64,000 nucleotides of DNA from a virus. Taxonomy: Duplodnaviria; Heunggongvirae; Uroviricota; Caudoviricetes. A model generated the notes under the pieces. It did no database searches. It was not told the origin of the DNA and saw only the letters and a list, made by a program, of their open reading frames with translations. Shown here piece by piece: positions 19,932-48,142 of the stretch. A program made the translations under genes and the position numbers. Position 1 is the stretch's first letter; every line of letters starts with the position of its first letter. Where the stretch lies: the IMG/VR virus record IMGVR_UViG_3300042259_000129. One strand, written 5' to 3'.

Positions 19932-19956
19932 CCATTAGCTAAATAATAAAATTTAA

Positions 19957-19986: not shown

Positions 19987-20000
19987 CTATAAATAATTAT

Positions 20001-20468
20001 ATGAGTTACATGCATAATCAATTTAATCCAAATAAACATACTTTATATAATCCTGTAAACCCCCAAAAATATATGGGAGACGTTTCAAAGATTATAAGTA
20101 GATCTTCTTATGAATGAAACTTTTATAGATGATTGGATACTAATGAACAGGTTCTACAATGATGCTCTGAACCAATTGGATTACCTTATGTAGATTGAAC
20201 TGGAAAACAAAGAAAATATTTCCCTGATATTGTTTTTAAATGTAAGACACCAAGTGGACAGGAAAAGATCTATATGGTAGAAATTAAACCATTTAAGGAA
20301 ACGATTCCACCTGTTACCAACAGTAGAAAAAAAGCTAAAACCCTATTACATGAAAAACAGACCTGGGAAACTAATATTAGAAAATGGGAAGCTGCAAAAA
20401 GGTATTGTAAAGCTAAAGGATGAGAGTTCAAATTAATTACAGAAAAAGAATTAGGCATGGGAAGATAA
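20001..20468 (+). CDS. Hypothetical protein, 155 aa, with 4 TGA. Conserved Trp/Tyr-rich core, possibly a nuclease fold.
   Basis: Continuous frame only if TGA is read as sense. No ORF of 60 aa or more in the track, because of the TGA density. Confidence 0.45.
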
Positions 20469-20472
20469 TCTA

Positions 20473-21579
20473 ATGGCAATAAAAGATGATATAAAAAATA
20501 TATTATTTAATAAAGGAAATCAAATACATTATAAAAATATTAAAAAGCTTGATAATGAATATAAATGATTATTGGATCGAATTTTAGATAAAACAAAATT
20601 TTTAAATAATATAAATCCAACAATTAAACAGCGAATTTGATATATTTTAAATGAAGTATCTGAAGTTGTTATGTGTAAGAATTGTGGTAAAGTTCCTCCA
20701 AAATTTAGAGAACGAGGATTAATTCAAGAAGAATTTTGTTCAAGAAAATGTATAGGGAAATATCATCTTAGTGGGGAAAAACATTATTATTTTAAAAATA
20801 AAACTATACCATATGAAGCAACTTTAGAATATATACAAATACATGGATATGATAAAATAGAAGGGCTAGAATGAAAACTAAACCCTAATAACTCCCTATT
20901 AATTCTTATAAAATGTCACCAATGTGGGAAATGGTATACACCAAAGATATGGGAGTTTGTTAATAAAAGGGGTGTTTTTTGTTGTAGTGAAGAATGTAAA
21001 ATAAAAAATCCATTATTTTCTTTAAATGGAAAAGATGGTGTAACGTTTCCGCATAAATGAAAAGGAAGAAGAGAATGAGCTTGGTTTGATACATATTCTC
21101 CTAAAATTTCTTTTTGCGAAGAAACAAAAAAGGAAGAAGAAACTGGAGCGTTGCTAGTAAAATGTATTCAATGTAAAGAATGATTCAGACCTAGTTTTAT
21201 TCAAGTTCTGCAACGTTTAAATGGTTTAAATGTTGGCAAAGGATATTTTTATTGTAGCGATAATTGTAAAGAAGTATGCCCAACATTTGGAAAAAGAAAA
21301 TATACATTGGGACATGAACCATATGCCCAATTAAATATACAGAATGAAATAAAACAGATTGTTTTTGAAAGAGACAATTATACATGTCAAATATGTGGAA
21401 AAACAAAAGAAGAATTGGGAAATGTTCATTTATGCTGCCACCATATAGATCCAATAAAGAATAATCCAGTTGAAAGCGCGGATGTAGATAATTGTATTAG
21501 TGTATGTAGAACCTGTCATAATATGATACATAGTAATAATTGTAATTATGGATTTCTAAGTACTTGTAAAGAACAATGA
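20473..21579 (+). CDS. Free-standing HNH endonuclease with N-terminal zinc fingers. About 368 aa with about 5 TGA.
   Basis: C-terminal HNH: CQICGKTKEE...HLCCHHIDP...N...CISVCRTCHNMIH. Several CxxC...C motifs upstream. Confidence 0.7.
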
Positions 21580-21594
21580 TAAAGGAACAAAACT

Positions 21595-22062
21595 ATGGCA
21601 ATTAAAATATCGCTTACCCATAAACATGGCAATATTACAATGAGATCTGGTGAATTCTATACATTCAATTACACTGGATTCGCTCATGATCCTAGACCTC
21701 ATATTCTTTTTATTAACAAAATTTCAGGAATACATCCCAAGTCAAATCATGAGCATCACTATATACAGGGCATTAACCTGACATATATCCCTAGACAGGA
21801 CAGAAGAAAATTTGTAGATGATTGGATTAAGAATTATTCAAAATCAAAAAATTTAAATTTCACATGACAATTAATAAAAAGAAAATACCCTTATATTGCA
21901 TTTGGAATTAGAAGATATTTTTGGAAGCCCCCTTATTATATGTCAAAAATGGAACATTTAGATACTATTGAAAAAATAGAAAAGGTTATTGTGGGCAATT
22001 GGGCCAAAGATTTCAGTAAAAAACTTAGAATGAAAATTGCTCAAATTTTCAAAAGAAGATAA
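21595..22062 (+). CDS. Hypothetical protein, 155 aa, with 1 TGA.
   Basis: Continuous frame 21595..22062. Confidence 0.5.
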
Positions 22063-22074
22063 AGAGGATTTGCT

Positions 22075-23130
22075 ATGCGGCTGTGGAAATTGTTATTTAT
22101 AACTTTAATTTTTACGTTAGATCTTTTGTTGATTACTAAACCAGTATCAACATCGAATTTGAATAAGAGTCTTTTATTACCAGTATTAAAAATTGCTATA
22201 GTTAATTCATATGATATTGACCATGTTTGTGGAAGCCCACAAACACAAGGCATAATTTCACAGTTGACAAAATGAAAGAATGATTATCAATTTGATATTC
22301 AAGTATGATACATGAAAACTGGTTTGACTTTTACAACACCAGAAGAAATAGAATACATATCAAAAAAAGTTATATGGGATATTAAAGCATTCGCCCCAGA
22401 TTATATCTTTACTGTTGATGATACTGCATTTAAGAACATAGGAATACCTTTTTCTAAAACTCATAAAATATTTTTTACCGGGATTAATAAACCTATTTTA
22501 GATTATGTTAATTCAGATAATATAGAAATATCAAAATATAGTGGTATAGAAGAATATATTACTTTAGATAAATTTTTTAAAATGCTTTCGAAAATAGAAG
22601 TTTATCCATCGAAGTTTTGAATATTATCAGATTCCAGCACAACTTCTTTTTTTCTAGCTGATCAATATAAAGAACAGATTAAAAAGAATACCTCATTTGA
22701 TGTTAATGTAATAGTTATAAATACAATTTCAGGATTAAGAGAAACATTAAATAAATTGCAAAGAGAAAAACTTGGTGTAATAATATATGCTTTTCAAACA
22801 TTAACAGATACTGATTATAATGTTGTAAAATCCAAAAAATCAGTTTTAGATGATATGTTTAAATATAATAGAAAACATTTAGAACTATGTGAAAATTTTT
22901 ATTATTCACAAAAGGGGATAGCTATGACAATTTCACCAGATTTTTATAAAATGGGGTCAGATACAGCAATATTATTTCAAGAAGCATTATTAAATAATAA
23001 TTGAGAATCTAAAATTTTGAGCTCTCAAACTAAATTTTCAATAAATATTAAAAGACTTGAGGAACTTAACTTCGGTTGAATATATAGTAAAATAATTGAA
23101 GAGGTAGACGGGTCTTATGCAGTATATTAA
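22075..23130 (+). CDS. Hypothetical secreted or membrane-anchored protein, 352 aa, with about 4 TGA.
   Basis: N-terminal hydrophobic segment (LLFITLIFTLDLLLI). Fragments 22075, 22312 and 22756 share one frame. Confidence 0.45.
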
Positions 23131-23422
23131 AGGGAAGATAGGATTATTTTTACATAAAATATTATCTAATCTTCATTATATTTCAGCAATCATCATAGGT
23201 ATTTTGTTTATAACTAATATGCTGTTTTATAAGTCAGAGGAAGTCAACCTGGAGGATGTATTATTAGATAAAACTTTTGAAAATGTTGATGAAATATACA
23301 TTAATAATGAATTCGGGAAGTCAATAATTTTAAAAGTTCCACATAGATCAAGGATCATAGTTCATAAGAAAGAACTTAATGAAAACAATTCCTTCTTAAT
23401 ACGGGTTGATGTTTTAAAATAG
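23117..23422 (+). CDS. Small membrane protein.
   Basis: Predicted transmembrane helix (AIIIGILFITNMLF). Confidence 0.5.
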   Translation: MQYIKGKIGLFLHKILSNLHYISAIIIGILFITNMLFYKSEEVNLEDVLLDKTFENVDEIYINNEFGKSIILKVPHRSRIIVHKKELNENNSFLIRVDVLK

Positions 23423-23453
23423 GAGGTGATGTGTAAATAATAAGGAGAACGAT

Positions 23454-23891
23454 ATGGTAGAATTATTTTTAAGTTTGCCATTTAGTATAGAGGTTTGAAA
23501 AACAATATCCATTTTATTATTAGCAGCCATATTTTTTCTAGTTAGAATTTACAATAGATATTTTAAATTAGAAGATTTGGTTGAACAAGATATTAAAGAA
23601 TTAAAAGAAACTTCTAAAAAACTAAATTTACATATGGAAAAAATACAAGAACAACACGAAGAATTTTTAAAAATTGTAGATAAATTTATAGGTGTTGTTA
23701 CAACTACAGATGATATTAGCTCAAAACAGAAAGAACAAATAGCTCTTCTAAATAAAATAGTAGATAATTTTAATGCACATGATGTCTGTAAATTAAAAGA
23801 AAATATAAAAGAAGATAATAGTGAATCATTAAATCTGAAGAAGTTGTTAGAGATGATATGTGATGAATATGAATTACACAAAAAAGATTAA
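23454..23891 (+). CDS. Membrane-anchored coiled-coil protein, 145 aa, with 1 TGA.
   Basis: AAGGAG ribosome-binding site. N-terminal transmembrane segment followed by K/E-rich coiled coil. Confidence 0.5.
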
Positions 23892-23960
23892 TTGTATTGT
23901 TTACAATTTAATTCCCCTGTTTTAAATTTATATAAATTTGAAATGGGGGTATTTTTTATT

Positions 23961-24449
23961 ATGGAACCTAAAACAAAGGAAACTAAATGTAATTATTATG
24001 TAAAGAATAAAGATCTTATTATTGAGATTGAAAAGCTTAAGAGCACCAATGTCTTTTCTGATACTTTAGGGAAATATATTATTCAGATTGTAAATGGTCT
24101 TTCTCATAGACCAAACTTTAATGGTTACACATATTTGGAAGATATGAAGTCAGATGCTCATGTAGCAATCATCAAAGGTCTCAGAAATTTTGATTTAGAA
24201 AAATCTAATAATCCATTCGCTTACATCACTCAGATTGCTTGAAATGCATTTATCGCATTTATAGGCAATGAAAAGAAAAAATCCAAAACAAAGAAAAGAT
24301 TATTTGATCTTAAAGAAATCATTCAAGAAGACGATTCTATGAGTGCTATCAACTATTCATATTATTGTGAAATTGAAGTTTTTGAAATAGATGAAGAGAC
24401 ACCTAATTTGAACAATTGTAATTTAGAAATATGTGAGGATAAAGAATAA
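23961..24449 (+). CDS. gp55: Late-transcription sigma factor gp55-like.
   Basis: KCNYYVKNKDL...GLSHRPNFNGYTY...AIIKGLRNFD...NPFAYITQIA[TGA]NAF aligns with T4 gp55 (KYNYVNNKEL...GLSKRFNFSGYTQ...ASIKGLHNFD...NPHAYITQACFNAF). Confidence 0.8.
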
Positions 24450-25435
24450 TGAAACATGCTCTTTTTACAGACCTTCATGTGGGTCTAAACATTAATAATG
24501 AAGTATGAGAAAAACTTCCAATTAAAGCTGTGGATTTTTTAACCACAGAATCAAGAAGAAGAAACATTAAATCAATAATTTTTCTTGGTGATTTTTATCA
24601 TGACAAGAAAGAATTATCTGTTAAGGCTATTGATTCTGCTAGGATAATTTGTGAAATGTTGAATGATTTTTCCACCTATATTATTTGTGGAAATCATGAT
24701 GCTTATTTTAAGCATACAAATGAACTTAATTCACTTCAAACTATTGATAAGTATGATAATATTAAGATTGTAAATGAACCAACTGTTATTTATGATAAGA
24801 TTGGGCTTTGCCCATGATCAAATGAGTACAAATCTTTAAATACCAAAATTCTAATGGGGCATTTTGATATTAAAGATTTTAAGATGAATGATAACACAAC
24901 ATCATTTCATGGAGAAGAAATTTCTTCTTTTAAGGATTATGAAATTGTTCTATCAGGTCATTATCATACTCAATCCCAAAAAGATAACATCATTTATATT
25001 GGCAATATGTATGGGCATAATTTTAATGATATTAATGCAAAAAGAGGGTTCCATATTTTTGATGATGAAACATTAGAATTGGAATTTGTTGAATTTATTG
25101 ATGCACCAAAATTTATTCATGTTTTTGACATGAATCTTGATGAAACCCTAATTAAAGGGAACATTGTTAAAATTTATTTCACAAAAGAATATTCAGAAAT
25201 GGATATTTTAGATTTCTTGACAAAAATCAAATCCCTAGAACCTTTACAAGTTGATGTTGATTATTCAAGAATTGAAATTGAAGATGTCAAAATGGATATT
25301 CCTACTGAGGAATTTTCAACATTAGATGAGAAACAATTATTCTTGACTTACCTTGATAAAATTTCTATCCCAGATCATTTAAAATTGACAATGTGTAAAA
25401 AGATACTTGAAGATTTATTCAAGCCAACTGAATAG
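24449..25435 (+). CDS. gp47: Recombination endonuclease subunit gp47-like (Mre11/SbcD metallophosphoesterase), with 2 TGA.
   Basis: ALFTDLHVG (motif I), FLGDFYHD (motif II), ICGNHDAYF (motif III), SGHYHT (motif V). Same overall pattern as T4 gp47. Confidence 0.8.
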
Positions 25436-25506
25436 TCTTTCTAAATCCAATCCATTCAAAAGGTAATTAGATTTTTCTAGTTACCTTTTTTCATAATTAT
25501 TTCCTG

Positions 25507-25872
25507 TATTGTTTCACCAATCAATATAATTCTATATACTATACCCTCCGTACCAAGTTAATATATTAACTACCCTGCCGGGATTCAATTGTAAACAGGG
25601 AAAATGAGATCAGATGATAAAATATGCTCAATGAGGAAAATAAGTCCGGAAATCTCGAGATTTTCACACTTTTCCGGAAGCCTAATTATTTCAATAACTT
25701 AGAAATCCACCAAAATCTTAGTTTTCCTAATAATATCAATAACTTACGAGAAAACTGGGGAAAACTATGAAAAAAGGTGTATAAAACATTACGATTCCGA
25801 TGAGTTTTGAAAAAGCTAATAATTTCAATAATTTAGGATTCCACTTTTTAGTGTACTTCTTCTAAGAGATTG
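25507..25872 (+). repeat. Copy 1 of a ~370-bp noncoding repeat module, inside a 480-bp gene-free region.
   Basis: Shares a 63-bp block (tattgtttcaccaatcaatataattctatatactataccctccgtaccaagttaatatattaacta) and a 70-bp block (taattatttcaataacttagaaatccaccaaaatcttagttttcctaataatatcaataacttacgagaaa) with copy 2 (47765..48142). Confidence 0.8.
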
Positions 25873-25919
25873 GTTATTCTAAATTCATCTTAACCACACA
25901 AACCAAATCGGAGATTAAG

Positions 25920-26288
25920 ATGTTTGCTATTATTAATGATAACAATGAACGACTTGCAAATGCTTACACATTCAAATTTGTGGATGATTCTAAAAGATGT
26001 TGTCTTTGGAAGAATGAAGCTCCTGCTTTAAGGCTTATTGAAAAGTTGAAAAATGAAAATCTTGGAACCCTCAGGGTTATTGAAGTTTCTGAAATTCCTG
26101 TACCTGGAAAGAGAAGAAGGAAGTCCAAAGAAGAAACGAAAGTTCAGGAAGAAAACATTGAATTCGATGAGACTTCTTTCTTCGAATCTGGATATAATGA
26201 AAAGTGTCTTCGCTGTGAGGGTGACTGTAAGCAGTCTGCCCTGGCAAAAATCATTCGTTGCCCTAGTTTTAGAAAAATTAAAAAATAA
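25920..26288 (+). CDS. Hypothetical protein.
   Basis: Intact 122-aa ORF. Confidence 0.5.
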   Translation: MFAIINDNNERLANAYTFKFVDDSKRCCLWKNEAPALRLIEKLKNENLGTLRVIEVSEIPVPGKRRRKSKEETKVQEENIEFDETSFFESGYNEKCLRCEGDCKQSALAKIIRCPSFRKIKK

Positions 26289-26352
26289 GTTTACATTGTC
26301 GAAAGTTTTTGTTAAGTTCTTTTTATCAACACAATAACAATGGAGAAATCAA

Positions 26353-26628
26353 ATGAATTCTTATTTTGAAAAAGTCGAACCCATGGACGGTGAACAAATT
26401 GCCCAGGAACTCGGAACTACCCGTCAGTATGTTTGTAATACATTAAAATCTGCCCTTCGCAAAATCTACAAGTCCCTCAAGAAGAAAAATCCTGACATGA
26501 CCCCCTTTGAAATTGTAAATGCCATCCGGGAATTTTTTGGAATTGAAGATACCGATGAAATTCGAATTTTCTTCAATGCCTTCCCTCCTGATGTTCGCGA
26601 AGAAGTAGAAAATTTTATGAAAGTTTAA
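26353..26628 (+). CDS. Small HTH protein resembling sigma-70 region 4.
   Basis: IAQELGTTRQYVCNTLKSALRKI resembles sigma region 4.2 / LuxR-type HTH. Confidence 0.5.
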   Translation: MNSYFEKVEPMDGEQIAQELGTTRQYVCNTLKSALRKIYKSLKKKNPDMTPFEIVNAIREFFGIEDTDEIRIFFNAFPPDVREEVENFMKV

Positions 26629-26703
26629 AAAAACTGTTTACAAACTTTCAAAAATTTTATATTCTAATCTCAACACAACAACAAATAACACAGGAGATTA
26701 AAA

Positions 26704-27528
26704 ATGGCTACTCCCGCTACTACCACTTTCAATCCCTTCTTTGAAGTAGAACGTACCCCTGTTTTTGCAAAGTATGGGAACAAGGAAATTCAGTTGGCAA
26801 AGGATGTTCTTATCAATACTGAAACCGGACGCCCTGTGGGTATGGTTGGTAAGGATTATAAGGTTATTACTAATAATGAAGTCAACGAGCTTTTTGGAGA
26901 AGCCTTCTCGAAGTACAAGGTTAAGCAGACCATGGATTTCATTAAGAAGGGTGGGGAAACTTGGGTTCGTCGAATCGTCTTCGAAGATGATGAACTGACT
27001 TTCGAAGTTGCTAATGGCGATATTTCCCATGTTATGCTTGAAATTTATAACGGATTTAATACAACCATCCGATATGGATATAATCTCAGCCTTTTCAGGA
27101 GCATCTGTTCCAATGGAATGGTTTTTGGTAAAAAGAATCTCTTTGGATTAAATTTCACTCACAACTCAGATCAGCTCGAAACAATTCGATCCACATTTGA
27201 AATTGGTGCTAAGTCCATTGGCGAAGAAATTATCCCGATTTGGCAGAAGTGGACGAAGATCCCTCATACCATGAATGATATGGAAGTTTTCCTTGATTCT
27301 CGTGATTATGTCAATAATGACAAGATGAAGGAAAGAATCCTTGTAACTTATGAAGAAGTGATGAATCGTGAAAAACATGATGAAACCCGATTTGGTGCAT
27401 TCAATGCTATCACTGAAATCATGACTCACCAGACTTCTACTCGCCGCGAAGATACTTCTAACATTTTTGGAAATGCATATCGCAAGTATGAAAGACTTGC
27501 TATGGATATGTATGCCCTTCCTATGTAA
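26704..27528 (+). CDS. DUF932-like phage/plasmid-associated protein.
   Basis: 274 aa. The N-terminal pattern FNPFFEVERTPVF...GRPVGMVGKDYKVITNNEV resembles the DUF932 family. Confidence 0.4.
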   Translation: MATPATTTFNPFFEVERTPVFAKYGNKEIQLAKDVLINTETGRPVGMVGKDYKVITNNEVNELFGEAFSKYKVKQTMDFIKKGGETWVRRIVFEDDELTFEVANGDISHVMLEIYNGFNTTIRYGYNLSLFRSICSNGMVFGKKNLFGLNFTHNSDQLETIRSTFEIGAKSIGEEIIPIWQKWTKIPHTMNDMEVFLDSRDYVNNDKMKERILVTYEEVMNREKHDETRFGAFNAITEIMTHQTSTRREDTSNIFGNAYRKYERLAMDMYALPM

Positions 27529-27553
27529 ATAAAATTTTGGGAGAGATGAACGT

Positions 27554-27745
27554 ATGGACGTCATAGCAGACCTTGAATCTGCCCTGGAAGAATCCAGCTC
27601 TCCCAATCTTTCTCTTAAAATAAAATACATTAACCTTATCAGGGAGATTGAACATGAACAAGAATTAACTAAATTTAGGTGTTTACAATATGAAATTCAC
27701 AAATTAGAAAAAGAATTATTCAAACAATATACAGAAGGAGTTTAA
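27554..27745 (+). CDS. Small hypothetical protein.
   Basis: 63-aa ORF. Confidence 0.35.
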   Translation: MDVIADLESALEESSSPNLSLKIKYINLIREIEHEQELTKFRCLQYEIHKLEKELFKQYTEGV

Positions 27746-27746
27746 A

Positions 27747-28130
27747 ATGTCACATCTTATTGAATATGTTCGTAAAAAGGGTAGAATTGTTGGATTTGAT
27801 TATGATGAAGAGGGAATTGCTACTCCTTATAGAGAAAAGGGAACTCCTTATGGGTGTCTCTATGCAAAAACATTTTGCGATCTTAATGGAGAATGCAAGA
27901 TTATAGTAGGTTGGAGTCTTTGTAATAAGAAAGATGTATTTACAAAGGATGATGCAGTGTCTATTGCCGCTGAAAGGCCTTTTGATTATGAATTTGGTTC
28001 GAAGATGCCTATTCCATCTTCTCTTGAAAAACAATTTGTTAAGTTTTGTAAACGCGCAAAGAAGTTTTATAAGCTCAATAATTTTACCCATAAGTATGTT
28101 ATCTATAAGGAAGTACCTCTCGATGTTTAA
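27747..28130 (+). CDS. Hypothetical protein.
   Basis: 127-aa ORF. Confidence 0.5.
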   Translation: MSHLIEYVRKKGRIVGFDYDEEGIATPYREKGTPYGCLYAKTFCDLNGECKIIVGWSLCNKKDVFTKDDAVSIAAERPFDYEFGSKMPIPSSLEKQFVKFCKRAKKFYKLNNFTHKYVIYKEVPLDV

Positions 28131-28479
28131 AGTTGACAAGGAAGACGGTCTTTTTACTCTAAATTCCGTCTTCCTTGTTTTTAGAGATAAAAAGCTATTA
28201 TATTTTTTAACTTTTAGAGATTTGTCTGATACATCTAAAACATTTGATGTTTGGTATATTAATGACTTTGGTAGAGTTGACTATAGTTTAATTACTGACT
28301 TTGAAATTCCTTGGAAAAAAGGTAATGATTCATTAAGTGCCAAACACGTTTCAAGAGTCATTACACAAATTGAAAAATATGGATTTGATATTTGGTTTTG
28401 GCCTGAAACAATTAAGAATCAATCTATAAAAGATTTTTATTTACAAAAGGTTAAACCTAAATTAAAATTAACTTATTAA
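28123..28479 (+). CDS. Hypothetical protein.
   Basis: 118-aa ORF from the ATG at 28123, in frame with track ORF 27934..28479. Confidence 0.45.
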   Translation: MFKVDKEDGLFTLNSVFLVFRDKKLLYFLTFRDLSDTSKTFDVWYINDFGRVDYSLITDFEIPWKKGNDSLSAKHVSRVITQIEKYGFDIWFWPETIKNQSIKDFYLQKVKPKLKLTY

Positions 28480-28485
28480 CAACAT

Positions 28486-28563
28486 GGCCCTGTAACTCAG
28501 TTGGAATAGAGTACGATCCTTCTAAGTTCGATGTCACAAGTTCGATTCTTGTCAGGGTCACCA
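28486..28563 (+). tRNA. tRNA-Arg (anticodon UCU) with an encoded CCA end.
   Basis: Manual cloverleaf fold. Acceptor GGCCCTG/CAGGGTC, D-arm ACTC..GAGT, anticodon loop CTTCTAA, T-arm ACAAG-TTCGATT-CTTGT. Confidence 0.75.
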
Positions 28564-28566
28564 TTT

Positions 28567-28640
28567 ACCCCTATAGTTCAGTTGGTTAGAACCCCCGGCT
28601 CATAACCGGAATGTCCCAAGTTCAAATCTTGGTAGGGGTA
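28567..28640 (+). tRNA. tRNA-Met or Ile2 (anticodon CAU). No encoded CCA.
   Basis: Manual cloverleaf fold. Acceptor ACCCCTA/TAGGGGT, D-arm GTTC..GAAC, anticodon loop CTCATAA, T-arm CCAAG-TTCAAAT-CTTGG. Confidence 0.7.
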
Positions 28641-28661
28641 CAATCTTCAAAGGAAAACATT

Positions 28662-28883
28662 ATGATCAGAGAAAAACAGAACAAAGAAATGATTATTGAT
28701 TTGACTGGTCCTGAAGGTAATGCCTTTTGCCTATTAGGTTATGCAAAAAGTTTTGCTAAACATCTTTCATATTCAAAAGAAGAAATCGAAGAACTGATTA
28801 GTGATATGATGAATGGTGATTATGAACATCTAGTTACTGTGTTTGATAGTCATTTTGGTCATTTTGTAATTCTGGAACGATAA
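28662..28883 (+). CDS. Small hypothetical protein.
   Basis: ATG just downstream of the tRNA-Met gene. The track ORF 28611 start lies inside the tRNA. Confidence 0.45.
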   Translation: MIREKQNKEMIIDLTGPEGNAFCLLGYAKSFAKHLSYSKEEIEELISDMMNGDYEHLVTVFDSHFGHFVILER

Positions 28884-28899
28884 AAACAGGGGGATTATT

Positions 28900-29307
28900 A
28901 TGTCTTATCCAGACCTTGATTTAATTAAAGAATACACAGATTTGTTTCTATCAAAGTCTATCACCTCACTGAAAACAACTCAAATAGTTGATCTTATTAA
29001 TCATTTAAGAGAACATAATAATGAGCTTATTAAAGAAAACAAAAGTATGAAATTGAATCCCAACAAAAATAAAAACAAGTATATTAAAATTAGTAAAAAA
29101 TTTTATAAACCTAGTGAGCAGTTATGGAATAGAATTACATTTTATATTGATGAAGAAATATGGCTTAATCATAAACGTAGTGATGTTGTATCATCGACTT
29201 CTTATTATAGACTACTGTCCCTAGCTGATGTGGTTATTAAAAACGATCAAATAATTAAATATCGTTTTGCTGATCTTGAAGATATTTTTGATAATATCCT
29301 TCTATAA
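28900..29307 (+). CDS. Hypothetical protein.
   Basis: 135-aa ORF. Confidence 0.5.
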   Translation: MSYPDLDLIKEYTDLFLSKSITSLKTTQIVDLINHLREHNNELIKENKSMKLNPNKNKNKYIKISKKFYKPSEQLWNRITFYIDEEIWLNHKRSDVVSSTSYYRLLSLADVVIKNDQIIKYRFADLEDIFDNILL

Positions 29308-29318
29308 AGGTGAATAGC

Positions 29319-29843
29319 ATGAAAGAATTTTTAGAAGATAAGATTGATGATATTGTGTGGATTTGGAAGAAAATCCAGAACTTCTATTATGATATCAAAT
29401 ATGGTATTAAAAATCTTATCATTTGGTTCCCTATTATCTGGAAAGATAGAAGCTGGGATTATTCGTATATGTTTCCTATTTGGGAAAAGAAATTTGATTT
29501 GATGATTGAATCATTCAAGAGAGGAAGCAAGTATGTTTGTGGTTGTGAAAAACACATTAAAAGATTAAAAATTTGTAAAGAAATTTGTAGAAGACAGAAA
29601 GATGATTGGTGGTATCATGAAAATGGATTTATGTTTCATGATAAGAAATGGGGAACCCTCGATTGTTCTGTAGAAAACGGATTTTTTAAAACACATCGAG
29701 AAAATGTAAAGACTCCTGAAGATGAAAAAATTGAAACCCAACAATTTTTGAATATACATAAACTTGTTGAACAACATAAGAAAGAAGATATGAATATGCT
29801 TTTAAATTACATTAACAAGTATTGGCAAAGTTGGTGGTGGTAA
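29319..29843 (+). CDS. Hypothetical Trp/Cys-rich protein.
   Basis: 175-aa ORF using TGG for Trp many times (ends ...QSWWW). Confidence 0.5.
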   Translation: MKEFLEDKIDDIVWIWKKIQNFYYDIKYGIKNLIIWFPIIWKDRSWDYSYMFPIWEKKFDLMIESFKRGSKYVCGCEKHIKRLKICKEICRRQKDDWWYHENGFMFHDKKWGTLDCSVENGFFKTHRENVKTPEDEKIETQQFLNIHKLVEQHKKEDMNMLLNYINKYWQSWWW

Positions 29844-30076
29844 TGAAAGTCTTCTGTAAAGATTGCCGATATATTGATTGGATTCCGGTAGATGGACCTC
29901 GAATGGCTGAAGCTAGATGTAAAAGGATAAAAGAATATAAACAGAGAGATACTCCTCTCGAAGTTATAACAACACCAAGATATTGTAATCCATATTCCGA
30001 CAATCTATTAAACAAATGTCCTTATTTTGAAGAAAAACAATCACTTCTAAATTGTATTTTTAATTGGAGTTGATAG
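29843..30076 (+). CDS. Small Cys-rich protein.
   Basis: CKDCRY...CKRIK...C motifs. Ends ...NWS-TGA(W)-TAG. Confidence 0.45.
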
Positions 30077-30336
30077 ATGTTTACATTTTTTAAAGAAGAT
30101 TTTTAAAACAAAACAAACTTCTGATCCGTTTATTAAGAAAGATGATTTATTTTATTTGTCATATGGTGATGGAAATCCTTTCTTTGTAGACGAATATAGA
30201 TTTGTAACAATTAAAGATGTGAAAGATGGATGGGTTTTATATGCTATGCATCCTTTAGGAAAACATAGAATGTTTCAAAATGAAACAATGGAAATTAAAG
30301 AGTTTTTAAACATTTATAAAAAGGTGGAAAAGTAAA

Positions 30337-30789
30337 ATGACAATTCAGGAACAACTACAGAAAGCTATGATTGAGGCTCTAAAGGCTGGTAATTCAATTC
30401 GTAAGGATAATATTAAATTCCTAATTGGCCAGTTTCAGACAGCATCCAAGAACAAAGAAAAAACTGTTACTGACGAAGAAGCTATTAAGATTATCAAGAA
30501 TATTGTTAAATCTGTTAAGGAAGTAACTATCCCAAATCTTATTCAGAACCCTATACAGGGAATTGGGCTAGACACACCAAATCCAAAACTCACAGAAGCA
30601 TATGATTTTATTGAACTTTGTGAATCAATTCTACCTCAAATGGCAACAGAAGAAGAAATTAGAAATTTTCTAAAAACAGTTGACTTTTCTCAGTTTAAGA
30701 ATAAGATGCAAGCTATTGGTGTTGTTACAAAACACTTTAATGGCAATGTAGATGGAAATCTTGTGAAATCTATTGTAATGGAGATGTAA
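30337..30789 (+). CDS. GatB/YqeY-domain protein.
   Basis: MTIQEQLQKAMIEALKAGNSIRKDNIKFLIGQFQTASKN... follows the YqeY family pattern. Confidence 0.6.
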   Translation: MTIQEQLQKAMIEALKAGNSIRKDNIKFLIGQFQTASKNKEKTVTDEEAIKIIKNIVKSVKEVTIPNLIQNPIQGIGLDTPNPKLTEAYDFIELCESILPQMATEEEIRNFLKTVDFSQFKNKMQAIGVVTKHFNGNVDGNLVKSIVMEM

Positions 30790-30791
30790 AA

Positions 30792-30980
30792 ATGAGTAAG
30801 TATGCATTTACTTTTGGTTGTGGTCAAAAACACGCAAATTGTTATGTTGTGATTGAAGGGTCTTTTGATGAATCCCGAAAAAGAATGTTTGAAATGTATG
30901 GCCCTGAATGGTCTTTCCAGTATGAATATGATGATAACTTTTTAGAAATTGCTAATAAATGGCGATGGAGGGAAATCTAG
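30792..30980 (+). CDS. Small hypothetical protein.
   Basis: 62-aa ORF. Confidence 0.4.
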   Translation: MSKYAFTFGCGQKHANCYVVIEGSFDESRKRMFEMYGPEWSFQYEYDDNFLEIANKWRWREI

Positions 30981-30981
30981 A

Positions 30982-31344
30982 ATGACCATTGATAACATTG
31001 ATGAACTCTACGAGGAAATTAAAAAGTTAAAATTAAAGCAGAAAGAAATTTTTGATTATATTTCCGTATATATTAAAAACAAAAGCATTCCTATTAATGA
31101 GAGATGGGATATGTTTCGTAACAATGAAGATATGTTTCCTAAATCTGAGTGGATTATTCATTACAAAGAATTAGAAAGTAATAATATAAACTACTATGAC
31201 GATTTCAACTACGAGAGACATGAAACAGTTAATTTAGTAAATTTGGTTGAACGTGTAGAAGATTACGATCTTGATATTGATATTGACAAATTGAAGGAAG
31301 AGGTATTAGAACATGGATATTCCAACTTTAATTTTGATTGGTAA
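30982..31344 (+). CDS. Hypothetical acidic protein.
   Basis: GGAGGG ribosome-binding site, then ATG 30982. Confidence 0.5.
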   Translation: MTIDNIDELYEEIKKLKLKQKEIFDYISVYIKNKSIPINERWDMFRNNEDMFPKSEWIIHYKELESNNINYYDDFNYERHETVNLVNLVERVEDYDLDIDIDKLKEEVLEHGYSNFNFDW

Positions 31345-31364
31345 TGAGGATAATTATGAATGAC

Positions 31365-31571
31365 TATGTTAAGTTGTATGTATGGGGGGCTATTCTTTTG
31401 TGTGTGTTTGCTTTTTCGTTTGGGTATGCTGCGCCCTATCTAATTTCGGCTGCAAACACTGAACTTTTTTTCCTTGGGGTGTTTACAATTGCTGTATCCC
31501 CAATTATGATTGCTTTTATCATTATGAAGAAGATTTTACCTATTGTTAGAAAACTTAAATCAAAGGAGTAG
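31365..31571 (+). CDS. Small two-transmembrane-helix membrane protein. Possibly an NfeD-like partner of the SPFH protein.
   Basis: Two hydrophobic helices in a 68-aa ORF immediately upstream of the SPFH gene. Confidence 0.45.
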   Translation, partial: YVKLYVWGAILLCVFAFSFGYAAPYLISAANTELFFLGVFTIAVSPIMIAFIIMKKILPIVRKLKSKE

Positions 31572-31574
31572 TTT

Positions 31575-32432
31575 ATGAAAAATCTTGTTTATCTAATTCT
31601 GTTTATGGTGTTGACTTTTGGAAGTGTAGCTTGTACCAAAGTACCTTCTGGCAATGTTGGTGTGAAGGTTTATCTTCTTGGTGGAAATAAAGGGGTTGAC
31701 ACTGAAGAGCTTGGTGTTGGACGATATTGGATTGGTTGGAATGAAGAACTATATATTTTTCCAACATATACTCAGAATTATGTTTGGTCTGCAGATTCTC
31801 GTGAAGGTTCTCCTGATGATGAATCAATTACGTTTCAGACAAAGGAAGGTCTTTCTGTAAATGCTGATATTGGTATTGCGTATCACATTGATCCAAATAA
31901 GGTTAATGATATTTTCCAGAAGTATCGTAAGGGTGTAGAAGAAATTACTGACATTTATCTAAGGAATATTGTGCGAGATGCTTTTGTCGTAGCATCTTCA
32001 AATAAGCCTGTTGAATTTGTTTATGGTGAAGGTAAGGCTGCTCTTCGTGATGAAGTTGAATCAATTGTAAAGAGTAAGGTTGAACCTATTGGTATTATTA
32101 TTGAACAGATTTCCTTTGTTGGTGATCTTCGTCTTCCTGGATCCGTAATTACAGCACTTAACGCTAAAATTGAGGCCACGCAGACTGCACAAAGGGTTGA
32201 AAATCAAGTCCGCGAAGCTGAAGCCGAGGCCCGTAAGAAAATTGCTGCCGCACAAGGCGAGGCAGAATCTATTAAGCTTGTAGCTCTTGCACAGGCCGAA
32301 GCAAATAAAATCCTATCTAACTCAATTACTGCTACTCTTGTTGAATATAAACGAATTGAAAAGTGGAACGGAATTATGCCAACATATATGGCAGGAACAA
32401 TGCCGTCCCCGATGCTATCGATTAAAGAATAA
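31575..32432 (+). CDS. SPFH/band-7 (stomatin/prohibitin/HflK-C-like) protein with a lipoprotein-type signal.
   Basis: Signal peptide and lipobox (TFGSVAC), an SPFH core, and a C-terminal Ala/Glu-rich coiled coil (REAEAEARKKIAAAQGEAE). Confidence 0.65.
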   Translation: MKNLVYLILFMVLTFGSVACTKVPSGNVGVKVYLLGGNKGVDTEELGVGRYWIGWNEELYIFPTYTQNYVWSADSREGSPDDESITFQTKEGLSVNADIGIAYHIDPNKVNDIFQKYRKGVEEITDIYLRNIVRDAFVVASSNKPVEFVYGEGKAALRDEVESIVKSKVEPIGIIIEQISFVGDLRLPGSVITALNAKIEATQTAQRVENQVREAEAEARKKIAAAQGEAESIKLVALAQAEANKILSNSITATLVEYKRIEKWNGIMPTYMAGTMPSPMLSIKE

Positions 32433-32505
32433 AGAATTTTATTTACAATAGATAAGTGGCTTGATAGATTATTTTTATCAAGTCACTTTTAATATTGGAG
32501 TTCAT

Positions 32506-47764: not shown

Positions 47765-48142
47765 TATTGTTTCACCAATCAATATAATTCTATATACTAT
47801 ACCCTCCGTACCAAGTTAATATATTAACTATCATATTTCTCCGGAGTTGTAAATAGAGAAAATTCAAGTTTATACCACATCTCGAATATTTTTTTATCAG
47901 AAAGTCTGGAAATTTTGAGATTTTTCATGTTTCCAGGAAGCTTAATTATTTCAATAACTTAGAAATCCACCAAAATCTTAGTTTTCCTAATAATATCAAT
48001 AACTTACGAGAAATCCACCAAAATCTATAGAAAAACGTAATGTTTTATACATCATTTTCTTAGGATTTCGAATAGTTAATAATTTTAATAATTTAGGATT
48101 TCTTAAAATCCTCTTTTTCTCCATTAGAAATTTCTATAAATA
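47765..48142 (+). repeat. Copy 2 of the ~370-bp noncoding repeat module, in a divergent intergenic region.
   Basis: Same blocks as 25507..25872. It also carries an internal duplication of aaatccaccaaaatct. Confidence 0.8.
48135..48142 (+). promoter_or_regulatory. T4-type late promoter (TATAAATA).
   Basis: 35 nt upstream of ATG 48177. Confidence 0.5.

What the first reader, a model, noticed from the sequence alone, without database searches (positions are those of the whole stretch)
25440..25920. Duplicated ~370-bp noncoding module (copy 1) inside a 480-bp gene-free gap
In a genome that is otherwise packed end to end, two gene-free regions share long identical blocks in the same orientation, 22 kb apart. 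They are 25507..25872 and 47765..48142, sharing blocks of 63 bp and 70 bp plus shorter ones. The module contains short internal iterated motifs: atttcaataactta, aatatcaataacttacgag, taatttcaataatttagga and ccaccaaaatct. These resemble arrays of protein-binding sites or a structured RNA. Candidates are a replication origin, a regulatory hub, an ncRNA gene, a packaging site, or a recombination hot-spot that organises the genome.
Basis: seen in the sequence. Interest (0 to 1): 0.65.

Follow-up and report, generated by a model that had tools for sequence, protein, structure and literature searches.

The report
Repeated noncoding cassette in recoded phage
The two gene-free gaps really do share a conserved non-coding cassette, which occurs about five times per genome in a small group of T4-like phages that read TGA as tryptophan; it is a real, selected, strand-oriented regulatory element at gene-block boundaries, but its mechanism is still unproven.

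Summary
Confirmed. Window 25507-25840 and 47765-48100 are direct copies, with exact blocks of 66 and 71 nt (chance maximum 16-19). I found 12 distinct copies plus solitary units at one locus shared by two phages. They occur only in 3-4 related code-4 T4-like phages, five per 165-kb genome, in syntenic slots, always pointing the same way as the downstream gene.

It is not a gene. Substitutions are spread evenly over codon positions, 7 of 11 copies lack an ATG, none has a visible Shine-Dalgarno sequence by eye, and there are no protein relatives. It matches no Rfam family and has no stable global fold (z -0.7 to -2.0).

Anatomy: an optional promoter-like head; then a core with three 21-nt 'A units' on a fixed lattice (45 nt in 12/12 copies, 89 nt in 6); weak conserved inverted repeats that place the invariant A1 unit in a loop (6 compensated pairs; 4/500 shuffles reach this); and a dyad hairpin, H4, whose apex is inverted between paralogs. 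The sense strand is C-rich and G-poor. The head and core evolve in concert within a genome.

Best reading (about 0.35): a transcribed boundary cassette whose A units are recognition sites that control read-through, comparable to lambda nut sites. Rivals: a family of replication origins, sibling sRNAs, a PeSL-type cassette. Copy 1 sits exactly where TGA-containing genes give way to a 10.6-kb TGA-free block.

The parts
25458..25491 (+). Intrinsic (bidirectional-type) terminator ending the gp55-like/SbcD operon, just before copy 1
   Evidence: Hairpin of -16 kcal/mol, z = -7.75, followed by a U run. The orthologous hairpin in phage C is called as a terminator on both strands.
25507..25572 (+). 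Copy 1 head (P block + H1): 66 nt identical to copy 2. Contains sigma70-like TTCACC-16-TATACT (25513-25540), ACCCTCCGTAC (25543-25553) and the 16-nt palindrome AGTTAATATATTAACT (25556-25571).
   Evidence: It resembles this phage's other early-type promoter, GTTTAC-16-TATATT. It is not called as a promoter in the phage C copies, so the promoter role is inferred.
25573..25644 (+). Copy 1 H2 stem around the conserved TGTAAAC (25573-25600), then a slot-specific variable stretch
   Evidence: The stem sequence differs between copies (CCCTG/CAGGG, TTTCTC/GAGAAA, CCTA/TAGG); this was seen by eye. The variable part follows orthology, not genome (W2-C2 72%, W1-W2 43%).
25645..25678 (+). Copy 1 H3: TCCGGAAA...TTTCCGGA hairpin. 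Its 5' half is also the left arm of the long-range inverted repeat around A1.
   Evidence: -10 kcal/mol, z = -1.6. One compensated C-G to T-A change in copy 2. Long-range helices tested.
25682..25702 (+). Copy 1 A1 unit, CTAATTATTTCAATAACTTAG: the most conserved element of the family
   Evidence: Nineteen of its bases match AATWATWTCAATAACTTAG in 11 of 12 copies; R1 has one substitution. It lies in the loop of the covarying three-helix stem.
25703..25726 (+). Copy 1 spacer AAATCCACCAAAATCTTAGTTTTC (C-rich, G-poor); right arm of the inverted repeat around A1
25727..25747 (+). Copy 1 A2 unit, CTAATAATATCAATAACTTAC, exactly 45 nt after A1
   Evidence: 45-nt spacing in 12/12 copies
25750..25809 (+). 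Copy 1 H4 dyad region. The apex 16-mer GTGTATAAAACATTAC (25777-25792) is inverted relative to copy 2.
   Evidence: I20. A long imperfect hairpin forms in 10/11 copies and is equally stable on both strands.
25816..25836 (+). Copy 1 A3 unit, CTAATAATTTCAATAATTTAG, 89 nt after A2
25851..25922 (+). Own promoter-like sequence (GTGTAC-N18-TATTCT), CA-rich leader, SD and ATG of the first TGA-free gene (25920-26288). Not part of the repeat.
   Evidence: Conserved in the slot A orthologs and similar after copy C5. By eye it resembles the promoter+leader repeat.
47765..47830 (+). Copy 2 head (P block + H1), identical to copy 1. Lies in a divergent intergenic region.
47836..47904 (+). Copy 2 H2 stem (TTTCTC...GAGAAA around TGTAAAT) and variable stretch
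47905..47938 (+). Copy 2 H3 hairpin (CTGGAAA...TTTCCAG)
47942..48007 (+). Copy 2 A1 (47942-47962), spacer, and A2 (47987-48007); 45-nt spacing
48010..48069 (+). Copy 2 H4 hairpin, base GAAATCC/GGATTTC. Apex GTAATGTTTTATACAT (48037-48052) is the reverse complement of the copy 1 apex.
48076..48096 (+). Copy 2 A3 unit, followed by a small hairpin with a U-rich tail (48096-48120)
48135..48142 (+). T4-type late promoter motif TATAAATA for the head-tail adaptor gene (48177-48980). Outside the repeat.
   Evidence: adaptor identified

Best explanation
The module is a conserved, non-coding, strand-oriented cis-regulatory cassette that marks boundaries between transcription units in a small clade of TGA=Trp T4-like phages.

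Shown: it is under purifying selection as nucleotide sequence. It is not translated. It always points the same way as the downstream gene. Its sense strand is unusually C-rich and G-poor. It consists of (i) an optional 66-nt head that looks like an early promoter followed by a small palindrome, and (ii) a core in which three 21-nt A units sit on a fixed 45/89-nt lattice among weak but conserved inverted repeats (A1 in a loop) and a dyad hairpin, H4.

Inferred: the core has to be transcribed. The head is present only where no co-directional transcription can enter: in divergent regions, or after a strong terminator. It is absent where the core directly follows the stop codon of a co-directional gene.

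Most likely mechanism (inferred, about 0.35): the A units, read in the nascent RNA and displayed by the weak stems, are recognition sites for a phage- or host-encoded factor. That factor decides whether RNA polymerase stops at the adjacent hairpins (H4, or the PeSL-type stem-loop after the solitary unit) or reads on into the next gene block. The logic matches that of lambda nutL (just after a promoter) and nutR (between a stop codon and a terminator). The C-rich, G-poor, unstructured stretch would act as a Rho-loading-type segment. Co-evolution with the factor, helped by gene conversion, would explain why all copies in one genome share lineage-specific changes.
For: - Real and selected. Exact blocks of 66 and 71 nt against 16-19 by chance. 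The A1 motif matches in 11/12 copies (one substitution in R1) across 3-4 phages, while the variable stretch about 100 nt upstream is only 43-58% identical.
- Family and synteny. Five copies in a 164.7-kb relative at about 3.8, 27.6, 52.7, 100.4 and 120.5 kb. Slots are shared between lineages. No copies turned up elsewhere in the viral, metagenome or genome collections.
- Orientation. 12/12 copies, and the solitary units in both phages, point the same way as the downstream gene.
- Head distribution. Present in slots A, B and C; absent in R1, R2 and C5, which begin at an upstream stop codon. A terminator precedes slot A.
- Sense-strand composition. C/G is 1.3-3.1 in 11/11 copies, against a genome sense-strand skew of +0.14; the core is at the 1st-3rd percentile.
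- Lattice. 45 nt in 12/12 copies; 89 nt in 6.
- Inverted repeats around A1. 86.8% of cells paired; 6 pairs compensated against 2.4 +/- 1.2 (4/500 shuffles reach 6); all slid registers are worse; 16 G.U cells against 8 A.C.
- A unit next to hairpins. The solitary A unit lies between a stop codon and a stem-loop plus promoter. H4 is very stable in R2 (-22.8 kcal/mol, z = -7.9).
- Concerted evolution. The head is 99-100% identical within W/R, 88-96% within C, and 78-82% between them.
- Context. 8 of 9 relative copies lie in TGA-poor, early-type gene blocks, and W1 heads a TGA-free block.
Against: - No transcript data exist, so transcription of the module is inferred only.
- The consensus scanner calls the head as a promoter only in the W-type copies, at 9/12 matches, with hit counts no higher than in shuffles. 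It does not call it in phage C. A leftward promoter-like match also lies in the same block.
- H4 is not called as a terminator, and a good U tract follows it in only 2-3 copies.
- Structural signals are weak and as strong on the antisense strand: z -1.61/-1.64 for the A1 segment and -2.11/-2.36 for the core. That fits DNA-level dyads equally well.
- Downstream genes appear to have their own promoters, so read-through control is not obviously needed.
- No candidate antiterminator or RNA-binding protein was identified, and the host (and so whether it has Rho) is unknown.
- Copy 2 precedes late, TGA-rich genes, unlike the other slots.
Confidence: 0.35

Rival explanations
1. A sequence-related family of replication origins. 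Each module would be a promoter (or read-through transcription) feeding into an A+T-rich region with evenly spaced iteron-like A units and an AT-rich dyad (H4) that unwinds. Initiation would be through an R-loop or an iteron-binding initiator, as proposed for T4 oriF/oriG and oriE.
For: - About five copies per 165-kb genome. [quoted passage not shown]
- Three of the five slots are divergent intergenic regions.
- Direct repeats at fixed spacing.
- The dyads are equally stable on both strands, and the H4 apex is inverted between paralogs, both typical of DNA-level palindromes.
- One slot is next to the DnaB-like helicase gene and one next to SbcD.
Against: - T4 origins share no sequence motif, and R-loop formation there is not sequence-specific. 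Here about 200 nt are conserved.
- Core-only copies and the solitary A units lie in 3' UTR-like positions directly after stop codons, which is odd for an origin.
- GC skew does not change polarity at W1; it simply follows gene direction.
- The 45- and 89-bp spacings are not whole numbers of helical turns.
- No initiator gene was identified.
Confidence: 0.2
2. A PeSL-type mobile regulatory cassette: promoter and stem-loop signals flanking a short former ORF-sized insert, copied to several intergenic sites by recombination and kept uniform by gene conversion. It would have no function beyond supplying promoters and terminators and acting as a recombination substrate.
For: - In slot A, a terminator hairpin is followed about 20 nt later by a T4-early-like promoter-like sequence. 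That matches the PeSL definition and the TTTACW-N17-TAYWAT consensus given for the PST/T4 pair (PMC4122927).
- H4 followed by a downstream promoter-like sequence repeats the stem-loop-plus-promoter order.
- The solitary A unit abuts a classic PeSL.
- Concerted evolution shows the copies recombine.
- Slot A heads a variable region of small accessory genes.
- One frame stays open for 36-72 codons in all copies.
Against: - PeSLs are small composite promoter-terminator motifs present as a series per genome (PMC2839356, PMC4122927). This is a 200-340-nt unit at only about five syntenic sites.
- Gene conversion alone cannot explain conservation between genomes: the A1 motif is kept across lineages (one substitution, in R1) and the 45-nt lattice is fixed, while the adjacent variable stretch has decayed to 43-58% identity.
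- The A units and the compensated inverted repeats are not part of any PeSL description.
Confidence: 0.15
3. A family of five sibling small RNAs. Each would be made either from its own early promoter or as the 3' UTR of the upstream mRNA, and would end at H4. They would act in trans through their conserved single-stranded C-rich motifs (ACCCUCC, AUCCUCC/AUCCACC, A1), for example as anti-Shine-Dalgarno regulators or as a sponge for a host RNA-binding protein.
For: - The head is present only where there is no incoming transcription, and the core otherwise sits directly after a stop codon.
- The body is C-rich, G-poor and largely unstructured, with invariant motifs.
- CCUCC-type motifs are complementary to the phage's GGAG-type ribosome-binding sites (seen).
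- H4 is strongly hairpin-like with a U tract in R2 and C5.
- Downstream genes have their own promoters, so the module is a self-contained unit.
Against: - In most copies H4 is a weak hairpin without a U tract, and the scanner does not call it a terminator.
- A3, which is conserved in most full-length copies, lies beyond H4.
- A 250-300-nt RNA without a stable fold would be unusual for a trans-acting sRNA. There is no Rfam match.
- No target complementarity beyond short SD-like motifs was found, and the A-unit sequence has no complement elsewhere in the window.
Confidence: 0.12
4. A double-stranded DNA array of binding sites for a nucleoid-type or phage-encoded DNA-binding protein: an IHF-like bender, a small HTH or zinc-finger regulator encoded just downstream of slot A, or a site-specific nickase or clamp-loading site. 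It would build a nucleoprotein complex at gene-block boundaries without any need for transcription of the module.
For: - The A units are 21-bp sites that are partly dyad-symmetric and directly repeated at fixed distances.
- Several match the IHF consensus WATCAANNNNTTR with an upstream A/T tract. That consensus is from my memory and is a lead only.
- The dyads are strand-symmetric.
- Concerted evolution fits co-evolution with one protein.
- A 91-aa HTH/sigma-region-4-like protein and a basic Cys-rich 122-aa protein are encoded right after copy 1.
Against: - Strict co-orientation with transcription, the pattern of head presence and absence, and the sense-strand C>G bias are not expected for a pure dsDNA site.
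- The distance from A3 or the solitary A unit to the next promoter-like sequence varies by roughly 18-35 bp (measured by eye), so it is not a phased activator site.
- Compensated changes in the inverted repeats point to base pairing in a single strand.
- The host is unknown, so whether it has IHF is unknown.
Confidence: 0.12
5. A decayed or unrecognised small protein-coding gene (59-70 codons) whose 15-codon peptide repeat produces the 45-nt DNA periodicity.
For: - One frame is open through the core in 11/11 copies (36-72 codons) and is the longest of the six frames.
- The slot A copies and C5 have an in-frame ATG.
- The 45-nt spacing is a multiple of three.
- A gene caller predicted a 56-aa protein for copy C5 (P0001).
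Against: - Substitutions are spread evenly over codon positions: 218/190/192, 62/67/77, 173/191/173.
- By my rough count, amino-acid identity between orthologous copies (about 50%) is well below nucleotide identity (about 74%).
- 7 of 11 copies have no ATG, and by eye none has a Shine-Dalgarno sequence.
- A3 is out of frame (89 nt).
- No Pfam hit. The only hit among 5.8 billion proteins is the same element in phage C.
Confidence: 0.03

Closest known systems
PeSLs (promoter-early stem-loops) of T4-type phages (Arbiol et al. 2010, PMC2839356; Comeau et al. 2014, PMC4122927)
   Same: Repeated intergenic regulatory cassettes in T4-like genomes that combine a stem-loop terminator with a sigma70-like early promoter. 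They are concentrated at the edges of variable early-gene regions and act as substrates for recombination between copies. The start of the slot A copies (terminator + TTCACC/TTTACC-N16-17-TAxxxT) and the element after the solitary A unit fit this description.
   Different: PeSLs are small promoter-terminator composites present as a series per genome. This module is 200-340 nt, occurs about five times at syntenic slots, and its most conserved parts have no PeSL counterpart: the A units on a 45/89-nt lattice, the inverted repeats around A1, and the H4 dyad. Three copies have no promoter-like head at all.
Lambda nutL/nutR and HK022 putL/putR antitermination sites (recalled from my own knowledge, not tested here)
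   Same: Short cis elements repeated within one phage genome, oriented with transcription. They are placed either just downstream of an early promoter or between the stop codon of the first gene and a terminator. They are read in the nascent RNA, lie next to C-rich Rho-loading sequences (lambda tR1), and co-vary with the specificity of the phage's factor.
   Different: No boxA/boxB or put-type two-stem structure is present. The module is much longer and occurs five times rather than twice. No N-, Q- or put-type system is known in T4-like phages. No antiterminator gene was identified, and transcription of the module is unproven.
T4 replication origins oriE, oriF and oriG (Kreuzer & Brister 2010, PMC3016281)
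   Same: Several origins per genome (at least 5 in T4). They tend to lie at points of transcriptional divergence. Their architecture is a promoter followed by an A+T-rich unwinding region (oriF/oriG), or evenly spaced direct repeats with an early-mode promoter (oriE).
   Different: T4 origins share no sequence motif with one another, and their unwinding elements are not sequence-specific. Here all copies are homologous over about 200 nt. The oriE repeats are 12-nt units in a cluster, not 21-nt units 45 and 89 nt apart. No replication data exist for this phage.
Protein-dependent RNA antiterminator targets next to terminators (BglG/LicT RAT sites, TRAP/HutP triplet arrays) (recalled from my own knowledge)
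   Same: A conserved, intrinsically weak imperfect hairpin or repeated short motif lying immediately upstream of a terminator-like hairpin. It becomes functional only when a protein binds it.
   Different: The A unit does not overlap the 5' arm of the following hairpin, so the two structures are not obviously mutually exclusive. No CAT/PRD, TRAP or HutP homologue was looked for or found.

Membership tests
PeSL (T4-type promoter-early stem-loop cassette) | Stem-loop terminator immediately followed by a sigma70-like early promoter | tested here: inconclusive
   Met at the 5' edge of slot A: terminator 25458-25491 (z = -7.75), then TTCACC-16-TATACT 25513-25540. Also met after the solitary A unit. 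Slots B and C have a head but no stem-loop, and R1, R2 and C5 have no promoter-like head. The scanner does not call the head as a promoter in phage C.
PeSL (T4-type promoter-early stem-loop cassette) | Small composite motif present as a series of copies, mostly in hyperplastic regions and associated with indels between close relatives | tested here: not met
   The unit is 200-340 nt, with five copies in a 164.7-kb genome at syntenic slots shared between lineages. Most of the conserved sequence (A units, H3, H4) lies outside any promoter or terminator.
Structured non-coding RNA (any Rfam family, or a new one) | Match to a curated covariance model | tested here: not met
   Only two tRNAs reach gathering score in the window, and only two tRNAs in five loci of phage C.
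Structured non-coding RNA (any Rfam family, or a new one) | Thermodynamically stable fold, conserved and specific to the sense strand | tested here: not met
   RNAalifold gives -1.56 and -1.43 kcal/mol. Single-sequence z-scores are -0.70 and -2.04 (sense) against +0.07 and -0.83 (antisense). Mean z for the core is -2.11 (sense) against -2.36 (antisense).
Structured non-coding RNA (any Rfam family, or a new one) | Base pairs supported by compensatory changes | tested here: inconclusive
   For the 16-pair fold around A1: 86.8% of cells paired, 6 pairs with changes on both sides against 2.4 +/- 1.2 (4/500 shuffles), and all slid registers worse. The sample is only 11 related sequences, the fold was derived from the same alignment, and the G.U over A.C excess is small (16 against 8).
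Protein-coding gene or pseudogene (code 4) | Open frame with a start signal, codon-periodic substitution, and protein relatives | tested here: not met
   The frame is open for 36-72 codons, but 7 of 11 copies lack an ATG and by eye none has an SD. Substitutions are spread evenly over codon positions. No Pfam hit. No relatives other than the same element in phage C.
T4-type R-loop origin (oriF/oriG) | [quoted passage not shown] | not testable with these tools
   The sequence layout is compatible: a promoter-like head, then about 70% A+T sequence. Replication activity cannot be assessed. GC skew shows no origin-type switch at W1. The definition is from PMC3016281.
Iteron-type origin (T4 oriE-like, plasmid-like) | Cluster of evenly spaced direct repeats bound by an initiator protein encoded by the replicon | tested here: inconclusive
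   Three direct 21-nt repeats with conserved 45/89-nt spacing. No initiator-like gene was recognised among the flanking genes. The repeats are also found singly, after a stop codon.
Lambda nut / HK022 put antitermination sites | boxA + boxB hairpin, or the two-stem put RNA, acting on RNA polymerase | not tested
   No such motifs were seen by eye. The resemblance is positional only: after a promoter, or between a stop codon and a hairpin. The family features are recalled from memory, and no model was available to run.
IS200/IS605-derived miniature element (PATE/MITE) | Defined ends with subterminal hairpins related to a resident IS, and variable insertion sites | tested here: not met
   A TnpB-type IS is present (15831-17116) but shares no sequence with the module. 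Module copies have ragged 5' ends (full against core-only) and occupy syntenic slots.

The most novel reading that the evidence does not exclude
The modules are the cis sites of a read-through (antitermination-type) control system in a T4-like phage. A dedicated factor would recognise the A units in nascent RNA at about five places per genome and license RNA polymerase to pass from immediate-early units, which the host's standard code can read, into the following gene blocks. That includes the blocks needing TGA=Trp decoding: copy 1 sits exactly on such a code boundary. An alternative of similar novelty is that they are the first sequence-defined family of homologous origins in a T4-like phage.
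Probability: 0.2. Interest if true: 0.7.

Novelty: new variant of a known kind. Interest (0 to 1): 0.45.

Why it matters
T4-type phages are the reference system for phage transcription timing and for replication from multiple origins. Their known repeated intergenic signals are short (PeSLs, promoters), and their origins share no motif. Here a 200-340-nt homologous unit, with an invariant 19-20-nt site, a fixed lattice and compensated stems, recurs about five times per genome. That gives a defined handle for experiments: one factor-binding assay, or one transcript or replication-start map, would reveal either a new layer of read-through control or a family of related origins. The link to genetic-code recoding adds interest. 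Copy 1 marks the exact point where TGA-containing genes give way to a 10.6-kb TGA-free block, so the cassette may help explain how a recoded phage orders expression of genes that can and cannot be read by the host's standard code. If it proves to be only a promoter-terminator cassette kept uniform by gene conversion, it is still a clear example of concerted evolution of non-coding DNA within a phage genome.

Tried and rejected
1. **Known RNA family.** Rfam gathering search of the window and of five loci of phage C found only tRNAs.
2. **Global RNA fold.** RNAalifold and MFE z-scores on both strands were weak and strand-symmetric.
3. **Protein-coding gene or pseudogene under code 4.** Rejected on frame analysis, codon-position statistics, Pfam and a search of 5.8 billion proteins.
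4. **Wider distribution.**
   - INPHARED phages by blastn: no match.
   - The metagenome and GTDB genome scans with the 20-mer gave only 21-27-nt chance matches.
   - nhmmer profiles of the core and of the head found no further copies among the window and the 140 loci then held, none in the more distant relative L130, and one new copy (D3) among the 40 loci fetched later.
5. **Recent horizontal transfer of the module between unrelated phages.** I suspected this after and then dropped it. The 'R' contigs come from the same sample series as the window's own phage and share slots with phage C.
6. **Link to the TnpB IS element.** No shared sequence.
7. **MotA-box middle promoters.** By eye, the A units are not 12 +/- 1 bp from any -10-like hexamer (definition).
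8. **The A unit as a stable RNA hairpin.** 0 to -3.9 kcal/mol.
9. **The A-unit motif as a general promoter element.** Outside the modules the 12-mer occurs at chance level.
10. **GC-skew evidence for an origin.** None; skew follows gene direction.
11. **Suppressor tRNA near the modules.** None found in 18 loci.
12. **Population-level inversion of the H4 apex.** Six strain contigs are identical across copy 1.
13. **H4 as a canonical intrinsic terminator, and the head as a canonical promoter in phage C.** The scanner calls neither.
Full report
**1. The observation**

The two gene-free gaps share a direct repeat at an offset of 22258-22260 nt (families D4, D6 and D9). The exact blocks are 25507-25572 = 47765-47830 (66 nt), 25683-25753 = 47943-48013 (71 nt) and 25827-25840 = 48087-48100 (14 nt). 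Five shuffles of the window give a longest exact repeat of 16-19 nt. Homology spans about 25507-25840 against 47765-48100; mean column identity is 82% over the aligned gaps.

The 19-mer TAATWATWTCAATAAYTTA occurs three times in each copy and nowhere else in the window: 6 matches against 0.30 expected.

The genome reads TGA as a sense codon. Table 4 gives 23,201 aa of ORFs of 80 aa or more (longest 1401 aa), against 14,062 aa (longest 675 aa) for table 11. TGA alternates with TGG 35 times among orthologs and never with Gly codons, so it encodes Trp. With that code the genome is tightly packed, and these are its two largest real gaps.

**2. Context**

- Copy 1 (W1) follows a gp55-like late sigma gene and a gp47/SbcD-like gene, and a strong terminator at 25458-25491 (z = -7.75). 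It precedes a 122-aa gene of unknown function.
- Copy 2 (W2) lies in a divergent gap between an unknown minus-strand gene and the head-tail adaptor gene. That gene has its own TATAAATA late-promoter motif at 48135.

**3. The family**

Pattern scans, BLAST and nhmmer found 12 distinct module copies, plus solitary A units at one locus shared by phages R and C. All are in a few IMG/VR and JGI contigs of related T4-like code-4 phages. Nothing was found in GenBank phages. The metagenome and genome scans gave only chance matches.

A 164.7-kb relative, 'phage C', is about 75-79% identical to the window in genes. It carries five copies at about 3.8 (-), 27.6 (+), 52.7 (+), 100.4 (+) and 120.5 (-) kb, two of them syntenic with W1 and W2.

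The window's own phage occurs in JGI samples 3300042267-77. That is the same sample series as the 'phage R' contigs, which carry three further copies. W and R are therefore probably one genome with five modules and one solitary unit, as in phage C. Slots are shared between lineages:
- after SbcD: W1, C1, D1
- before the adaptor gene: W2, C2
- before a DnaB-like helicase gene: R3, C4
- before a PNK-like ATPase gene: R2, C5
- before a 213-aa gene: C3, D3

. A more distant relative whose SbcD is 48% identical has no module after SbcD.

**4. Anatomy**

Full-length copies have a 66-nt head: a sigma70-like TTCACC-16-TATACT, then ACCCTCCGTAC, then a 16-nt palindrome (H1). After it come a stem around the conserved TGTAAAC (H2) and a variable stretch.

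All copies then share a core: H3; A1; a C-rich spacer; A2; the dyad region H4; and A3, which is degenerate in R1, R2 and C5.
- A1 to A2 is 45 nt in 12/12 copies. A2 to A3 is 89 nt in six copies and 99 nt in D1.
- The A1 motif (19 nt) is the only stretch conserved even in the most diverged copies; R1 has one substitution.
- Copies R1, R2 and C5 lack the head and begin at or inside the stop codon of a co-directional upstream gene.
- The head is present where the upstream gene is divergent (slots B and C) or where a terminator intervenes (slot A).
- All copies point the same way as the downstream gene.

**5. Not coding**

One frame stays open for 36-72 codons in all 11 copies tested. The test came out against coding:
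- Substitutions are spread evenly over codon positions: 218/190/192, 62/67/77, 173/191/173.
- Seven copies have no ATG, and by eye none has a ribosome-binding site.
- A3 is out of frame.
- Pfam finds nothing.
- The only hit among 5.8 billion proteins is a gene call on copy C5 itself.

**6. RNA structure**

There is no Rfam family. Consensus fold energies are -1.56 and -1.43 kcal/mol. MFE z-scores are -0.70 and -2.04 for the sense strand and +0.07 and -0.83 for the antisense strand.

The single fold RNAalifold proposes does have support, however. Three short helices pair the 5' half of H3 with the spacer after A1, which leaves A1 in a 27-nt loop. For that fold:
- 86.8% of cells pair.
- Six of 16 pairs show changes on both sides, against 2.4 +/- 1.2 in shuffles; 4 of 500 shuffles reach six.
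- Every slid register is worse.
- G.U cells outnumber A.C cells 16 to 8.

Against this, strand-matched z-scores are equal: -1.61/-1.64 for that segment and -2.11/-2.36 for the core.

H4 forms the same long imperfect hairpin in 10/11 copies (base GAAATCC/GGATTTC). It is as stable on the antisense strand as on the sense strand. Its apex 16-mer is inverted between paralogs, with no polymorphism among six strain contigs.

So the module contains conserved dyads that display the A units, but it is not a stably folded RNA, and the strand that folds is not settled.

**7. Evidence for selection and for strand-specific function**

- Between genomes, the head (78-82% identity) and core (about 74-78%) are conserved about as well as the coding genes (73-79%). 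The variable stretch has decayed to 43-58%.
- Within a genome, the head and core are more alike than orthologs are: head 99-100% in W/R and 88-96% in C. The variable stretch instead follows orthology (W2-C2 72%, W1-W2 43%). This is concerted evolution confined to the functional blocks.
- The sense strand of the core has C/G of 1.3-3.1 in 11/11 copies, highest in the most diverged copy. The genome-wide sense-strand skew is +0.14, which puts the core at the 1st-3rd percentile and the head below the 0.5th.

**8. The solitary A unit**

At a syntenic locus of phages R and C, one A unit stands alone. It lies directly after a stop codon and directly before a GC-rich stem-loop whose 3' arm runs into an ATTTAC-N16/17-TATTTT/TATATT promoter. 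That stem-loop plus promoter is a classic PeSL (PeSL definition from PMC4122927). The A unit on its own is not a stable hairpin: 0 to -3.9 kcal/mol.

**9. Promoters and terminators: caveats**

- The head resembles this phage's other early-type promoter, seen in a second repeat family: GTTTAC-16-TATATT plus leader plus SD, at 26630-26703 and 58809-58882. But the scanner calls the head only in W-type copies, with hit counts no higher than in shuffles. It does not call it in phage C.
- H4 is not called as a terminator, although in R2 it reaches -22.8 kcal/mol (z = -7.9) and is followed by a U tract.
- Downstream genes seem to have their own promoter-like sequences.

**10. Genetic-code context**

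The roughly 24 genes from 25920 to 36576, starting with the first gene after W1, contain essentially no in-frame TGA and use TGG instead. Genes just upstream are TGA-rich, and TGA resumes at 36589. Eight of nine relative copies lie in TGA-poor blocks; only slot B is flanked by TGA-rich late genes.

This fits the published suggestion that recoding regulates late lytic genes (PMC11210395, citing Borges et al. 2022). It places most modules in early-type regions.

**11. Interpretation**

What is shown: a selected, non-coding, strand-oriented cassette with recognition-type repeats on a fixed lattice, displayed by weak conserved dyads, at transcription-unit boundaries.

What is inferred: the core must be transcribed, from the pattern of head presence and absence.

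I think the most likely mechanism (about 0.35) is factor-dependent control of read-through at the adjacent hairpins. The positional logic matches lambda nutL and nutR, which I recall from memory.

A family of homologous replication origins is the main rival (0.2). The count, the divergent locations and the promoter-plus-AT-rich-repeat layout parallel T4's origins (PMC3016281). But T4 origins share no motif, the copies in 3' UTR-like positions fit an origin poorly, and GC skew gives no support.

The other rivals are a PeSL-type recombination cassette (0.15), sibling sRNAs (0.12) and a dsDNA binding array (0.12). The coding or pseudogene reading is essentially excluded (0.03).

**12. Verdict**

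It is related to the PeSL cassettes of T4-type phages but differs in size, copy number and its most conserved parts, so I class it as a new variant of a known kind. Interest is moderate (0.45). The mechanism is open, but it could be settled with one transcript map, one replication map or one binding assay.

Noticed in passing
window 25920-36576: A contiguous block of about 24 plus-strand genes with essentially no in-frame TGA; TGG is used instead (for example 13 TGG in 29319-29843). It starts at the first gene after module copy 1. The genes upstream (17189-25435) and downstream (36589-39187, one with 9 TGA and 0 TGG) are TGA-rich. The block looks like a standard-code-readable early region in a code-4 phage.
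   Followed up: partly
window 15831-17116 (ORF 16066-17103): A TnpB-like (Cas12f1-like TNB domain) IS element in a divergent gap. It is flanked by 34-nt direct repeats containing TATAAATA (15832-15865 and 17137-17170). It is 88% identical in nucleotides and 96% in amino acids to a copy in L001. A TnpB gene also lies upstream of module copy C3 in phage C, in L137.
   Followed up: partly
window 26630-26703 (+) and 58809-58882 (-): A second duplicated non-coding element: 74 nt, 95% identical, inverted, each oriented with its gene. It reads as GTTTAC-16-TATATT, a CA-rich leader, GGAGAT and ATG. It appears to be a shared early promoter plus leader for the DUF932 gene and a small minus-strand gene.
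   Followed up: partly
L177 399-417 (-); L150 1100-1118 (+) = L158 = L170: A solitary A unit (CTAATTATTTCAATAACTTAGAATAA) at a syntenic locus of phages C and R. It lies between a stop codon and a PeSL-type stem-loop plus promoter, close to a tRNA gene cluster.
   Followed up: partly
window 25777-25792 vs 48037-48052: The 16-nt apex of the H4 dyad is reverse-complemented between the two window copies. More widely, W1 and R1 have one orientation and W2, R2 and R3 the other. This suggests inversion by recombination or template switching between the hairpin arms. No polymorphism was seen among six strain contigs.
   Followed up: yes
window 37927-38724 (gene 37697-39187): Ten tandem 81-nt (27-aa) repeats with the motif YGEEEGTRRYNEW, inside a 496-aa protein that starts with a zinc-finger-like sequence. 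The gene uses TGA nine times and TGG never.
   Followed up: no
window 19110-19285 and 19647-19723: Runs of 9- and 12-nt periodic acidic repeats (GAT GAA GAA GAC ...) encoding long Asp/Glu tracts in the genes at 18972-19931.
   Followed up: no
window 60205-60262 and 61405-61462 (also 60373-60430): A 58-nt repeat, 91% identical, upstream of minus-strand genes. On the minus strand it reads as TATAAATA late promoter, leader and AGGAGG. It is a duplicated late-promoter cassette in front of probable capsid-region genes.
   Followed up: no
window 39738-39772 and 58896-58930: A shared GC-rich hairpin, AAAGGGAGCCGAAGCTCCC, at two convergent gene ends. It is probably a repeated intrinsic terminator.
   Followed up: no
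window 28486-28641; L129 14832-14985; L128 14678-14755: tRNA-Arg (TCT, or CCT in phage C) and tRNA-Met genes lie inside the TGA-free block. No TGA-suppressor tRNA (anticodon TCA) was found in the window or in 18 related loci, so how TGA is decoded remains open.
   Followed up: partly
L137 about 3990-4640: About 650 nt between module copy C3 and the TnpB gene of phage C are noticeably GC-richer than the rest of the phage, have no long ORF and match no Rfam family.
   Followed up: no
L137 3875-3925 (copy C3): Copy C3 carries a 13-nt tandem duplication inside H3 (CTCAAGATTCTTGAT CAAGATTCTTGATGA). In slot E (C3 and D3), the A3 unit ends in TTAGGAG and so supplies the Shine-Dalgarno sequence of the downstream gene.
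   Followed up: no
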